64,000 nucleotides of DNA from contig OX597823.1 of NCBI GenBank assembly GCA_951406725.2, positions 2,418,001 through 2,482,000 on the forward strand. The letters run 5' to 3'. Under the pieces are notes generated by a model that saw only the letters and a list, made by a program, of their open reading frames with translations, did no database searches and was not told where the DNA came from. Each line of letters begins with the position of its first letter. Position 1 is the stretch's first letter. The position numbers and the translations under genes were made by a program. This document shows positions 9,436-63,175 of the stretch, in pieces. The stretch comes from Octopus vulgaris (Eukaryota).

Positions 9436-9740
9436 TTAGAAGAAATGAGGTAATCAGAAGATCGGATGGTTCATGTTTATAGATATTTATTTATATATTA
9501 CATTTTTTACATATATATATGTTAGTTAGTTAGTTATCAGATCATATCATTCAGATTATTAGCGCTTTCTCCCATTCTAGTGGGGTTTTCAAATCAAATT
9601 GATTTGAAAACCCCACTAGAATGGGAGAAAGCGCTAATAATCTGAATGATATGATATATATATATGTAAAAAATGTAATATATAAATAAATATCTGTAAA
9701 TATAAACCATCCGATCTTCTGATTACCTTATTTCTTCTAA
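9436..9740. repeat. About 305-bp fold-back palindrome inside (TA)n
   Basis: Perfect 57-bp arms at 9541-9597 and 9599-9655 with a 1-nt spacer; outer arms near-perfect out to 9436 and 9740. Confidence 0.92.
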
Positions 9741-10724
9741 TATATAATACCTGTACATCATCTCCAAACCTTCCAATATATATATATATATATATATATG
9801 TGTGTGTGTGTGTGTGTGTATATGTATATGTATACATACACATAGGCACACAGTGAAACAGATAGATTGATTAAAATATTGCACAGAAGTTAGCAATTTG
9901 AAAAATCCCATGCAGCAGGTGGAGGAGGATGGGGGTCGTTCCAGAGGCAGCAGCATCAGAGGTGTGTGTTTTGGCATTGGCTGCTGCTGCTTGTGCAAAC
10001 TGCTTATTTTGTCCCAGGTAAATTGCAGCTACTGCATGTGCATAGTCTCTTGCATTGAGAAAACTGGCATATTTTGAGGTGTCATGCATTTATAGATTTT
10101 AGTTTATGAAGAATGTGGATAGCTGGACAGTGAAGGGCTTTTCATTGCAGAGTTTAAGAGGTCATCAATTGTGCTAGTTTTGAGGAGTGACCGTTACTGT
10201 TGGTCATACTGTTGCTATTCATATATACTTTAAAGTAGTTGAAGATGCTTTAGTTTGGTAGTATATCCTTCTAGAGAATCCCCTTGGGAATTCTATGACC
10301 AACTTCACCAGTTGACATTTTAGACTTTTCATTGATTTATCTTTGAGAAGGAACCTAACTTCAAGCAGCTTTCTTCAGATCAATTTTTAGACACTATTTT
10401 CTAGACCTGGCAAAGTATGTAGGAGGTGCACTTGCACTGCCTGCACCCCCTGTTCCTGGGCAAGGATACTAAAGGAATCCTTCAACCCAGGGAACATCCT
10501 TAACTCCAGAACAGAGGTCTTCAGATCACGCTTGCACTTAAAGTGATTCCTACTGGTCTGCTGGGACCCACACATTAACAGGGGTTATTTACAATTGACA
10601 ACCAAAGGGAGACAATCCCCTGTTGTTGACAGCAACAAAGACTTTTCCTCCTCCATTTTCTAGAAAAGCATTTGTTGACCAAGAGAAAGCCTTCGACAGA
10701 ATCCCTGATTCTGTGATATGGTTG

Positions 10725-11010
10725 AAGTCGTCGTCATCATCATCACCATCATTGCTTAATGTCCACCTTCCATGCATGCATGGGTAGGACAGTTGACAGG
10801 AGCTGGCCAGTAAAAGACTACCCTAGGCTTTGGTCTCTGTTTTGACAGGGATTTTATGGTTGAATGCCCTTCCTATCACCAACCACTCAGCAGAATGGAC
10901 TTAATGCTTTTTACGTGGCACTAGCACGGGTGAGGTTAGTTTTGGCCTGATTTTGACAGCTGGATGCCCTTCCAAATGCCAACCACTATACAGTGTGGAC
11001 TGGATGCTCT
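10725..11010 (-). mobile_element. RTE LINE 3'-end fragment with (GAT)n-type tail
   Basis: Reverse-complement homolog of 8940-9105 (ggatgcccttcc..gccaaccact; ttccatgcatgcatggg), preceded by (cat)n. Confidence 0.7.
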
Positions 11011-11789
11011 TAAAGTTGGCAGCAGCATTAGCAGGGTCACCAAGTAACTTACAAGACAAGGAATTATGAGAGGGGCACGGGCATTTGAGGAGGGGAACTT
11101 GTGTCAGAGGAGGAAAGGTTAGAGTGTGACAAACAGACAGACAGAAGCAGGTGTCTTTCCACAACAGAGGGAGCATTAAAGGAGATGTTCTAGTGTCAGA
11201 TGATGAAAGGTTAGAATATAACAGGGAAACAGAGAGGCAGAAATAGGGGTCTTGCTATAGAGGAGGTACATAAATATACAGTGAGAGAGAGAGAGAGAAA
11301 AAAGAAGAGTGAGAGAGAGAGATATAGAGTGAGAGAGAGGTACAAGAAAGAGGCCAGAAACGAGTGTGCTGAATGTAAAGGAGATACTTAGTTGCCTAGT
11401 GAGTGGAAAGACAAGAGAAGGCGAGAGAGAGAGAGAGAGAGAGAGTGTGTGTGTGACCAAAGGGAAATAGAGAGAGAGAGTAGGAAATAACAAAAGTGTA
11501 AGAGAGAGCAGAAGAGAGAGAGAGTGTAGTGCTAAGGTATACTCACAAGTAACAAGAATATGAGCGTAAAACCTAGTTAAAAAAATAGGGAATGGGGGTA
11601 GTGGTGGGTAGAGGGGGACGGGTTGCAGTGAGCAGGGCAGTGAGGACCAAGAAAGGGGATTGGGAAACCGTTATAATGTATGTGGGGGAAATGTAAAGAA
11701 GAGAAAGATGCAGTTAGAAGAGGAGGAGAAGGGTAGAGTGGGTGGGACGTAACTCTTCTAGCTCTCAGTTTCATGGTAGTCTCTGGGGA

Positions 11790-12790
11790 AATTAAGGGTA
11801 GACAAACAGCTTGTGAAAATAATAGAAACCATGTACAGGGGTGTTGTCAATAGAGTGAGAGTTAGCCCTACTGCCCAGGGGTGAGTTTTGAATACAAGTA
11901 GACATTCACCAGGGATCAGTTCCCTGGCCTCTCTTTTTCATCATTGTTCTCCCAGCCATATTAAAGGAATAAAGATGCCCTTGAAAAGTGTCATCTGCAG
12001 ATTACCTCATTCTCAAAGTAGAATCGATAATAGAATCAGGAAAGGAATTTCAGATGTGAAAGCATAGCAGGAGTTAAAAGGCCTTAACTTAGCAAAGTTC
12101 TGGTAAGCAAGAAAACAGACAGGACTCACACCCAACCTCAGGTAAATAACCCTGGCTATTTACCTGAAAGTAGGTAGGGTGAAGGCAGAAATTGCATACA
12201 GTGTATCCAGTGCAAACTATGGACACACATGAAGTACTGTGGAATCATGGAAAGGTTAAGAGAGAAGTTAGTGTTTGTGGATGATGTGCTGGAGCAATGA
12301 GACACATGGGAAATAGATTTTCTCAAATGCCCTGAAGGCTCCCTAGAGGTAGTAGAAAGTTTTAATTAGCTAAGTAACCTAATTAGCAGTGGAGGTGGAT
12401 GTTTTCAAAGTATTGTTTCCTGTGCAGGAATCTCAATGCTACATGGTAGTGAGATGTGGGCCATGAATGCAGAGGACATAGAAAAACTAGAGGAGAATGA
12501 AGCTAGTATGCCCCACTGGATCTGCAATCTTAGAGCAACAATGTGTTGAGAGAAAAGTTAGGCACACATGGAATTAAATGTACAAGAGAGACGAATGCAC
12601 TGGTTTGATGCATACAGACGAGGACAGGTGTATGTAGAAGTTCTTGTGACTTAAAGTGAATGGAACTTGTAGAAGAGGGAAACTCAGGTAGACATGGGAT
12701 GAAGGTGGCTCTCGAAGCACTGAGTCTCATGTAGAAGATGACAAAGGCTCAGAATGATTGGTGATTTACTGTGCTCAAGAAGACTCAAGC
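11790..12790 (+). mobile_element. Highly decayed RTE LINE RT/C-terminal region
   Basis: Degenerate counterparts of 7700-8540 (HQGSV...PLLF, LHGSEMW, ENEASM) with many stops and frameshifts. Confidence 0.65.
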
Positions 12791-61742: not shown

Positions 61743-61834
61743 CTGTATGTATGACAAAGACAACAAAACTAAACATTGATTTCTAATATAGAAACAAGAT
61801 TTCCAGTTTTATTTGTAATTGGGAGAAGGTTACA

Positions 61835-62020
61835 TGCTGGCAGGATCGTTAGGGTAGCACACCGGACAAAATACTTAGTGGCATTTATTCCGGCTTTACA
61901 TTCGGAGGTCATCTTTTTGTGGTCGATAGAGTAAGTTCCAGTCACTCACTAGAGTCGATGAAATCGACTATCTCCCTCCCCACAACATTTCAAGACTTGT
62001 GCCTATCGTAAAGAGGATTT
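61835..62020 (+). mobile_element. SINE family B, diverged
   Basis: gctggcaggatcgttag...ggtcgatagagtaagttccagt...gacttgtgcctatcgtaaagaggatt. Confidence 0.65.
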
Positions 62021-63127
62021 GTAGTAGGAAAGGTATAGTTAATTAAGACCCACTACCAATACATAATTTGCATTTCATTATCGACCCCCAAAGAATCGAA
62101 AGCAATCGTGACTTTGGTAGTAATCGGAACGAGACCATAAATAAGTCTTATGAAATACCATAAAGAATTTTTGTACGACGCACCAGAATTTGTTGTCTAT
62201 CGACTTAACTTTTGTTTGTCCGTGTAAACCAGAACTCACTGTTCTGAAACAAAAAAATGTAACTAAACTTACATTAGAGAATTTAGTACTAGAAACAAGA
62301 TACTTGAGGGAAATTGTGCTTCCCCGCCTCCTCCTATGCCTTCCTTATATATATATATATATATATATATATATATATATATATATATATATATATATAT
62401 ATATATATATATATATATATATGTTTATATAAGTTTGTGTATAGCAAAGCATATGTATTTGTAAGCATGCGTATCTGTGTATGTGTAAGTGAAAGTATGC
62501 TTGTGCTTAAGCACGCATACACACGACGGTAATTATATGTATCAATTCAAACTTGTGTATGTATACTGGCCTCTATAGATGCCAATAATATCGCTACAAG
62601 TTTTTTTCCCCACCCCTCCTTCGTTTCTTTTTTCTCTCTTTCCCTTTCTTTCGTTCCCCCTCCTTGCTCAGTATATGAGAATTGCTACATAGATGAATTT
62701 TAGCTTGCGTGCGAGACGGGTTGCGTGAATATATGTACACATGCTTTTATGTGTATAATTTAGATTCATATTCATACGTCTGTATATGTATGTATGGCGT
62801 TTACGCGCATCCTTTTGTGTATGTTGATATATATATGTGGATTTTAAATATAAATATGTATTGCAGTATTTATAACAGGTTTAATTTCTATGCATTAATT
62901 TGTACTGTCTTCATTAACGGCAATAGGTTTTTTCCTCGGTTTTTTCCTCGGATTTTATAATTTTTATAAGTTTTTTATATTTATATACATATATTTTTGA
63001 CCTTTTTGTTTATCGCTCGAAGTTTGACCGTTTTTTCTAAAGGGCCAATCAAACAAGTCCATTTCTTTTTAAAGGTGTAGCGTTTGTAACAGTATAGATT
63101 GAATTAATATATATGTTCCATTCTAGC

Positions 63128-63175
63128 AAAAGCTGTCTGATGAACGGCAACGAGAAACTCAGAGTAACAGATTTT
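63128..63175 (+). ncRNA. Minimal type-I hammerhead-like motif, canonical C3:G8 core
   Basis: aaaagctgt-CTGATGA-acggcaacga-GAAA-ctcagag-TA-acagatttt: stem I pairs 8 of 9, near-palindromic stem III, GUA triplet, 2-bp stem II. Confidence 0.65.

What the first reader, a model, noticed from the sequence alone, without database searches (positions are those of the whole stretch)
9599..63175. Six Penelope-type hammerhead-like motifs whose core 3:8 pair covaries (C:G, U:A, A:U, G.U)
Seen: six motifs share one grammar (stem I, N3-U-G-A-N-N8-A, stem II, GAAA, palindromic stem III, UH, stem I'). The cores are CUGAUGA (63128+, 39216-), UUGAUAA (39947-), AUGAUUA (50475-), UUGAAAA (9604+) and GUGAAUA (58415-). 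Positions 3 and 8 stay paired in every case while flanks and stems are unrelated. Established: C3:G8 is a tertiary Watson-Crick pair in hammerheads, and Penelope-like elements carry minimal type-I hammerheads with palindromic stem III that cleave as dimers. Inference: several retroelement families in this genome use different 3:8 pairs, and a CUGANGA-only search would find just two of the six.
Basis: partly seen in the sequence, partly recalled or inferred. Interest (0 to 1): 0.72.

Follow-up and report, generated by a model that had tools for sequence, protein, structure and literature searches.

The report
Penelope hammerheads with swapped core pairs
The six motifs are copies of six high-copy repeat families in a large animal genome, mostly end pieces of Penelope-type jumping genes, carrying a predicted self-cutting "hammerhead" RNA whose core base pair occurs in all four Watson-Crick forms; one swap is already published, two I could not find reported in nature, and cutting is untested.

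Summary
Partly confirmed. Five of six motifs fit a minimal type-I hammerhead (one with only a 2-bp stem I). The sixth (58458-) lacks G12, and its G.U is decay of a G3:C8 family (83 of 100 listed copies G:C). With positions 3 and 8 left free, the scan gives 5 window hits against 0.155 in shuffles; 17 of 21 hits in 600 kb of arbitrarily placed genomic DNA are Watson-Crick, 8 of them not C:G. Each motif belongs to a repeat family with hundreds to thousands of copies. Three families carry RT plus GIY-YIG upstream, one does so through a sister family, and two have no parent ORF found. 17 of 18 multi-copy families pair 3:8, and one family holds both A:U and G:C subfamilies. In the CCGG stem-III class only 162 of 13,697 matches are CUGANGA. 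U3:A8 in Penelope elements is published (PMC4209133); natural A3:U8 and G3:C8 were not found in my searches, with two key papers unreadable. Cleavage is untested, and copies do not start at the cut site. The scan noted this before on another piece of this genome (e1-9529809). New variant of a known kind.

The parts
63133..63170 (+). Minimal type-I hammerhead motif, C3:G8 (N3 63137, predicted cut after 63166); 4-bp stem I, 2-bp stem II, near-palindromic 7-nt stem III insert
   Evidence: 32 of 32 parsed copies C:G; at least 4,586 exact matches to the 20 bases 3' of the cut
62421..63249 (+). 3' UTR/pLTR fragment of a young Penelope-like element; full-length 3.37-kb tandem units (L231, L232) have a hammerhead on each side of a 727-codon open frame
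   Evidence: 96.8% identical to L232 over 831 nt. The frame has RT and GIY-YIG-like motifs by eye but no Pfam hit
39216..39299 (-). Hammerhead motif, C3:G8 (N3 39296), 59-nt stem II, CGAUCG palindrome; family fragment spans 39068-39383; parent ORF not found
   Evidence: (22 of 23 parsed copies C:G)
39946..39995 (-). Hammerhead motif, U3:A8 (N3 39987), 8-bp stem I, CCGG palindrome; family fragment 39879-40119; Penelope link only through a sister family (L156, 736-codon RT frame, 85-87% identical over 90-113 nt around the motif)
   Evidence: 29 of 30 copies U:A
50479..50517 (-). Hammerhead motif, A3:U8 (N3 50511), 6-bp stem I, CCGG palindrome; family also has a G3:C8 subfamily
   Evidence: (42 A:U, 8 G:C, 5 single-site variants of 55)
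50321..51280 (-). 5'-truncated Penelope-like copy: broken RT C-terminus, CX4CXXC linker and GIY-YIG remnant (50587-51278) about 80-200 nt upstream of the A3:U8 hammerhead
   Evidence: tblastn; same-family copy L128 hits GIY-YIG PF01541
9602..9638 (+). Hammerhead-like motif, U3:A8 (N3 9604), GCGC palindrome, only 2-bp stem I; family linked to an RT + GIY-YIG frame (L233, 602 codons) ending about 1.2 kb upstream
9558..9594 (-). Mirror copy of the same motif (N3 9592); the insertion 9372-9799 is a head-to-head inverted pair
58415..58465 (-). Defective copy (U at position 8, A at position 12) of a G3:C8 hammerhead family with 7-bp stem I, 5-bp stem II, AUAU palindrome and U17; the insertion 58283-58582 is an inverted pair; parent ORF not found
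   Evidence: (at least 5,355 exact matches to the 3' flank)
27025..27273 (-). Host context: stop-free stretch with a lipoxygenase exon; the four minus-strand motifs probably lie in this gene's introns (inferred)
   Evidence: Pfam PF00305 E=7.4e-08; a further exon-like stretch with splice signals at 58969-59101 had no Pfam or PDB hit

Best explanation
The six motifs are scattered, partly decayed copies of six repeat families, at least three of them the terminal repeats of Penelope-like retrotransposons, each carrying a minimal hammerhead sequence that is predicted to cut its own RNA only when two copies pair through the palindromic stem III. Shown: the families, their copy numbers, the RT/GIY-YIG link for the 63137, 9604 and 50511 families, and a family-specific Watson-Crick pair at 3:8 in four forms (C:G, U:A, A:U, G:C). 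Inferred: selection acts on the source elements, which must keep the 3:8 tertiary pair, so only double changes spread, while dead genomic copies collect single mismatches. Inferred: tandem transcripts dimerise and are cut, whereas single-hammerhead transcripts stay uncut and are reverse-transcribed straight through the ribozyme, which is why most insertions keep the whole motif.
For: Window scan 5 hits against 0.155 in shuffles. 600 kb at round-number positions: 21 hits, 17 Watson-Crick (9 C:G, 6 U:A, 2 G:C), against 3.05 and 0.55 in 20 shuffles and 0 in the reversed sequence. Across all 2.02 Mb held (partly targeted loci), 17 of 18 multi-copy families are Watson-Crick at 3:8, permutation mean 8.5, p about 5e-5, against 3 of 18 at the control pair 3:7. 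Genome-wide CCGG class: 11,684 of 13,697 are Y3:R8 (reversed control 119); the first 100 listed are 89 U:A, 10 C:G, 1 U:G. A double change within one family: 42 A:U and 8 G:C of 55; G:C copies cluster on a tree built with both positions masked (2 changes against 7.2 in shuffles, weak supports). The A:U/G:C family is one starred clade beside three U:A families at 51-63% protein identity. Direct-tandem and inverted arrangements, variable 5' truncation and microsatellite flanks match Penelope elements as described in PMC8557442 (passages). Predicted intermolecular stem III for five window motifs is -7.4 to -10.0 kcal/mol. An engineered G3/C8 double mutant partly rescues a Penelope hammerhead (PMC11167929, passages).
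Against: No cleavage data. None of the first 100 listed copies of the G:C family starts at the predicted cut site, but neither do those of the canonical C:G family, so the test does not discriminate. The G:C family of 58458 has a predicted dimer helix of only -0.2 kcal/mol and no parent ORF; the 39296 family has none either. The 9604 family has a 2-bp stem I. Families are related, so the permutation p-value overstates independence; the swaps amount to a handful of events. The genome-wide R3:Y8 count (566) is below its reversed control (901), so A:U and G:C rest on family-specific searches. About 1,450 of the 13,697 matches are neither Y:R nor R:Y; one frequent family among them lies antisense inside an RT frame and lacks stem I. 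In PMC11167929 hammerhead mutants did not impair insertion in vitro.
Confidence: 0.8

Rival explanations
1. The non-C:G motifs keep a hammerhead-like fold that serves as a binding or folding element for the Penelope protein, and cut little or not at all.
For: Published minimal hammerheads cleave weakly in vitro (PMC4209133, parts 1-2 read); a Penelope hammerhead needed protein and was dispensable for insertion in vitro (PMC11167929, passages). Copies run through the cut site. Weak stem I in the 9604 family and weak stem III in the 58458 family.
Against: All catalytic core letters and the 3:8 pair, which belongs to the active conformation (PMC3884650, passages), are kept in 17 of 18 families with unrelated stems.
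Confidence: 0.14
2. The pairing is an accident of a few founder elements amplified thousands of times, with no selection on 3:8.
For: Copy counts are not independent events; the A:U to G:C switch may be a single event; R3:Y8 is not above its genome-wide control.
Against: Four different Watson-Crick states; 17 of 18 families paired against 3 of 18 at 3:7; the only unpaired 'family' is a mis-parse across inverted arms of the 58458 family; 16 of 20 singletons are also paired.
Confidence: 0.04
3. The two families without a parent ORF (58458 and 39296) are MITE-like or SINE-like repeats unrelated to Penelope elements.
For: No RT or GIY-YIG found upstream in the loci examined; many copies are palindromic.
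Against: The palindrome centres vary from copy to copy and single-arm copies with variable 5' ends are common, as in Penelope inversions; the motif grammar is the same.
Confidence: 0.15

Closest known systems
Minimal type-I hammerheads (min-HHR) of metazoan Penelope-like elements, including the U3-A8 variant of Schistosoma mansoni Cercyon elements (Cervera and de la Pena 2014, PMC4209133; parts 1-2 of 4 read, 2 of 3 supplementary files searched)
   Same: Type-I topology, short stem I, palindromic stem III, location in terminal repeats downstream of RT/GIY-YIG, mostly solo truncated copies, close inverted pairs, U3-A8 core (about 1,300 hits there), U17 common.
   Different: A3:U8 and G3:C8 families occur here and were not seen in the text or the searchable supplement; U3:A8 is far more abundant (about 10,000 inferred in one stem-III class); several families have 4-7-nt palindromes and stems II of 45-65 nt.
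Natural U3-A8 core covariation in hammerheads (Perreault et al. 2011, PMC3088659; section 8 read)
   Same: Compensatory change at 3:8 in nature; U.U mismatch at the base of stem II tolerated.
   Different: Only U3-A8 is reported in that section; no retroelement families with A:U or G:C.
PAc Poseidon element hammerhead of Anolis (PMC11167929; passages)
   Same: Penelope terminal-repeat hammerhead; G3/C8 double mutant partly active; uncut RNA is the main insertion template, as the genomic copies here suggest.
   Different: There G3:C8 is engineered and the element is of the Poseidon clade; the U:A, A:U and G:C elements here carry a CX4CXXC linker, which PMC8557442 (passages) assigns to Neptune and Nematis rather than Penelope/Poseidon.
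Small dimer-cleaving hammerheads of Penelope-like elements (Lunse et al., PMC5785218)
   Same: Title seen in a reference list; dimer cleavage through palindromic stem III is recalled.
   Different: Paper not held; it may already list A3:U8 or G3:C8 cores.

Membership tests
Minimal type-I hammerhead ribozyme | Core U4 G5 A6, A9, G12 A13 A14, A15.1-U16.1, H17 | tested here: met
   Five window motifs; for the 58458 family about 93 of the first 100 listed copies keep GAAA, by eye
Minimal type-I hammerhead ribozyme | G12 in the window copy at 58458 | tested here: not met
   A in place of G12; this copy is defective
Minimal type-I hammerhead ribozyme | Watson-Crick pair at 3:8 | tested here: met
   Family majorities C:G, C:G, U:A, U:A, A:U (with G:C), G:C; the 58458 window copy itself is G.U
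Minimal type-I hammerhead ribozyme | Stems I and II can form | tested here: inconclusive
   Clear for four families; 63137 has a 2-bp stem II and a competing fold, 9604 a 2-bp stem I
Minimal type-I hammerhead ribozyme | Self-complementary stem III allowing a dimer | tested here: met
   Palindromic in all six; predicted stable in five, marginal in the 58458 family
Minimal type-I hammerhead ribozyme | Site-specific self-cleavage | not testable with these tools
   Only assembled contigs were offered; the genomic 5'-end test was negative for both the variant and the canonical control
Penelope-like element (EN+) | Single frame with RT followed by C-terminal GIY-YIG upstream of the hammerhead repeat | tested here: met
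   9604 family (L233: RVT_1 and GIY-YIG), 50511 family (window remnant, L128, L237), 63137 family (L232, motifs by eye and tblastn similarity, no Pfam hit)
Penelope-like element (EN+) | Same, for the 39987, 39296 and 58458 families | tested here: inconclusive
   39987 only through sister family L156; none found for the other two
Penelope-like element (EN+) | Partial tandem or inverted terminal repeats, 5' truncation, microsatellite targets | tested here: met
Neptune clade | CX2-5CXXC linker and placement in an RT tree with reference elements | tested here: inconclusive
   Linker present; no reference proteins were in the tree

The most novel reading that the evidence does not exclude
All four Watson-Crick versions of the hammerhead's 3:8 active-site pair work in nature inside one animal genome, with one Penelope lineage running U:A, A:U and G:C, so that roughly half of this genome's intact hammerheads are invisible to standard CUGANGA searches; and the G3:C8 family records the control logic, because its short copies start at one sharp site 24 nt before the core, often behind an extra G, as expected of capped single-ribozyme transcripts copied uncut.
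Probability: 0.45. Interest if true: 0.55.

Novelty: new variant of a known kind. Interest (0 to 1): 0.4.

Why it matters
Hammerhead censuses, and statements that a retroelement group lacks hammerheads, usually rest on a CUGANGA core (for example the descriptors in PMC8557442). Here that core finds 162 of 13,697 matches in one stem-III class and 9 of 17 Watson-Crick hits in arbitrarily placed DNA, so counts in such genomes may be low by about half. The A:U and G:C subfamilies of one element are a ready natural pair for testing how the 3:8 pair tunes cleavage and whether cleavage matters for Penelope transposition, which is still open. The concept (3:8 covariation, Penelope dimer hammerheads) is known, which limits the surprise.

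Tried and rejected
Rfam scan: no hammerhead among 143 matches, nearly all microsatellite-driven microRNA noise. G.U as a real fourth state: rejected (6 of 100, as common as G:G). The extra window hit at 43986-: weak stems, treated as probable chance and not followed up. Copies starting at the cut site: 0 of 100 in the G:C family and none clear in 100 of the canonical family; uninformative. A sharp 5' start in the 63137 family: not shown, most of the 100 listed copies read through, although short inverted pairs join 14-17 nt upstream of the core in several of 14 pairs. Parent ORFs for the 58458 and 39296 families: not found in 30+30 and 30 loci plus 10-kb extensions; the PLE remnant 1 kb from L229 matches another family at 89% and was taken as a neighbour; the extension of L013 gave no continuous ORF. 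Expression: no RNA holder listed on record; contigs of four guessed-RNA runs cover parts of the 9604-family element but cannot show ends or splicing; no read data were obtained for the 58458 family. Three rows with no aligned residues (L361, L345, L358) were dropped from the protein tree; 24 of 56 copies were dropped from the DNA tree for lack of upstream overlap. PMC5785218 and PMC1986816 were not held; one supplementary file of PMC4209133 could not be searched; of bioRxiv 10.64898/2026.07.22.740005 only part 1 of 5 was read.
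Full report
Setting. The window is G000:C10:2418001-2482000 of a 2.8-Gb animal genome in 227 contigs, rich in microsatellites. Much of it recurs in three further near-identical blocks within 0.45 Mb on C10. A lipoxygenase exon lies at 27025-27273 on the minus strand, so the four minus-strand motifs are probably intronic and sense to that gene (inference).

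Observation. A descriptor with positions 3 and 8 free recovers 63137+, 39296-, 39987- and 50511- with stem I of 3-8 bp, recovers 9604+ and its mirror 9592- only at 2 bp, and does not recover 58458-, which has A in place of G12. At stem I >=3 there are 5 hits, all Watson-Crick at 3:8, against 0.155 in 200 local shuffles. Rfam finds no hammerhead.

Families. Each motif is a copy of a dispersed repeat: first-look candidates 808, 1656, 1891, 1299, 670 and 2024 for 63137, 39296, 39987, 50511, 9604 and 58458 (lower bounds, 40 scored each). The 3:8 state is a family property: C:G in 32 of 32 and 22 of 23 parsed copies, U:A in 29 of 30 and in nearly all aligned 9604 copies. The 50511 family has 42 A:U, 8 G:C and 5 single-site variants among 55 exact matches. 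The 58458 family is G:C in 83 of the first 100 listed of 434; G.U (6) is no commoner than G:G (5).

Covariation. In 600 kb taken at round-number positions, 21 hits were found: 9 C:G, 6 U:A, 2 G:C, 1 U.G and 3 mismatched, against 3.05 hits (0.55 Watson-Crick) in shuffles. Over all 2.02 Mb held, which is enriched for targeted loci, 190 hits fall in 38 clusters; 17 of 18 multi-copy clusters are Watson-Crick by majority (11 C:G, 4 U:A, 1 A:U, 1 G:C), permutation mean 8.5, while the control pair 3:7 is Watson-Crick in 3. Families are related, so this overstates independence. Genome-wide, the CCGG class has 13,697 matches (control 1,328), of which 11,684 are Y3:R8 (control 119), 566 R3:Y8 (control 901) and 162 CUGANGA (control 21). 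U3:A8 therefore dominates this class, and A:U and G:C are established by family searches, not by the class count. With both positions masked, G:C copies of the 50511 family cluster (2 changes against 7.2 shuffled; supports weak; 32 of 56 copies used), which fits one compensatory event in a source element.

Parent elements. The 63137 family is young (98-99% identity) and has full 3.37-kb tandem units with a hammerhead on each side of a 727-codon frame, in direct and inverted arrangement. The 9604 family lies 1.2 kb downstream of a frame with RVT_1 and GIY-YIG hits. The 50511 copy in the window sits directly behind a broken RT-linker-GIY-YIG remnant, and 42 A:U, G:C or A:G motif records of this family have such a frame upstream (overlapping loci not merged). 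The 39987 family is linked only through an 85-87% identical sister. No parent was found for 39296 or 58458. The A:U/G:C family forms a starred clade next to three U:A families; all carry a CX4CXXC linker, which PMC8557442 (passages) ties to Neptune and Nematis. No reference elements were in my tree.

Mechanism. From established hammerhead structure, N3 and N8 form a tertiary Watson-Crick pair in the active conformation (PMC3884650, passages). Minimal Penelope hammerheads were inactive as monomers and weakly active as dimers or trimers (PMC4209133). Five of the window motifs have a predicted intermolecular stem III of -7.4 to -10.0 kcal/mol; the 58458 family's is marginal. I infer that source elements are selected to keep an active-site-competent fold, that tandem transcripts dimerise and are cut, and that single-hammerhead transcripts are copied uncut. 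Copies do run through the cut site in both the G:C and the canonical family, as reported in vitro for PAc (PMC11167929); this fits the model but gives no evidence of cutting. In the 58458 family, of the first 100 listed of 236 copies reaching 24 nt upstream of G3, 28 read further into the element and 72 stop within a few bases; 47 of those 72 have a G just before the element, where the element has C (hand count). About 20 of the 47 can be explained by the inverted arm; about 27 cannot. A copied 5' cap at a transcription start is my preferred reading (recalled behaviour of reverse transcriptases; initiator-like sequence recalled), but the same site also looks like an intron end with a branch point, and I could not separate the two.

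Known and new. U3-A8 is published in nature (PMC3088659, section 8) and in Penelope elements (PMC4209133). G3:C8 is known as a partly active engineered swap. Natural A3:U8 or G3:C8 families did not appear in searches or in the searchable supplement of PMC4209133, but PMC5785218 and PMC1986816 could not be read, so absence from print is not established. The scan noted the same phenomenon on another piece of this genome (e1-9529809) and U3:A8 cases elsewhere; I reached my reading before that look-up and tested it here.

Verdict. Real motifs, correctly read as Penelope-type hammerheads with family-specific 3:8 pairs, with one state misread from a decayed copy. New variant of a known kind; cleavage untested; interest 0.4.

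Noticed in passing
window 27025-27273 (-), 58969-59101 (-); G000:C10 about 2.42-2.86 Mb: Lipoxygenase exon and a second exon-like stretch; the region recurs in four near-identical blocks, suggesting a tandem lipoxygenase cluster.
   Followed up: partly
window 39987- and 50511-: Two hammerheads of different families share the same CCGG palindrome and lie 10.5 kb apart on the probable sense strand of one pre-mRNA, so they could in principle pair with each other.
   Followed up: no
58458 family, 24 nt upstream of G3 (L313, L315, L321): Sharp 5' boundary with a frequent extra G; cap-copying at a transcription start or an intron end.
   Followed up: partly
L153:4300-6550 and L263:8660-9410: Tandem 359-362-bp retrozyme-like repeats: one family with C3:G8, another with U3:A8; L166:4999 is a U3:A8 relative (76% over 75 nt) of the C3:G8 family.
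   Followed up: partly
63137 family: About 21 short head-to-head pairs among 100 listed copies, with junctions mostly within 20 nt of the core; the 9604 family shows a similar cluster about 10 nt upstream, and the 58458 family has a recurring identical palindromic junction.
   Followed up: partly
L151, L152 (G000:C1:447309, 3549075): A frequent CCGG-class match with an unpaired 3:8 and no stem I lies antisense within a long RT frame; a few copies read CUGAUGA. Probably a chance match in a high-copy element.
   Followed up: partly
window 52680-54015 (-), 6942-7520 (-), 46884-47393 (+): Remnants of an LTR-type RT/RNase H and two other RT fragments (Pfam).
   Followed up: no
window 13178-13468 (-), 15956-17094 (-), 59708-60065 (-): Further decayed Penelope-like ORF remnants with no intact hammerhead detected beside them.
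   Followed up: no
clusters: Non-C:G cores go with 4-nt palindromes and short stem II; hammerheads with 45-65-nt stem II and 6-nt palindromes were all C:G.
   Followed up: no
window 1-533: 66-bp tandem repeat, about 8 units.
   Followed up: no
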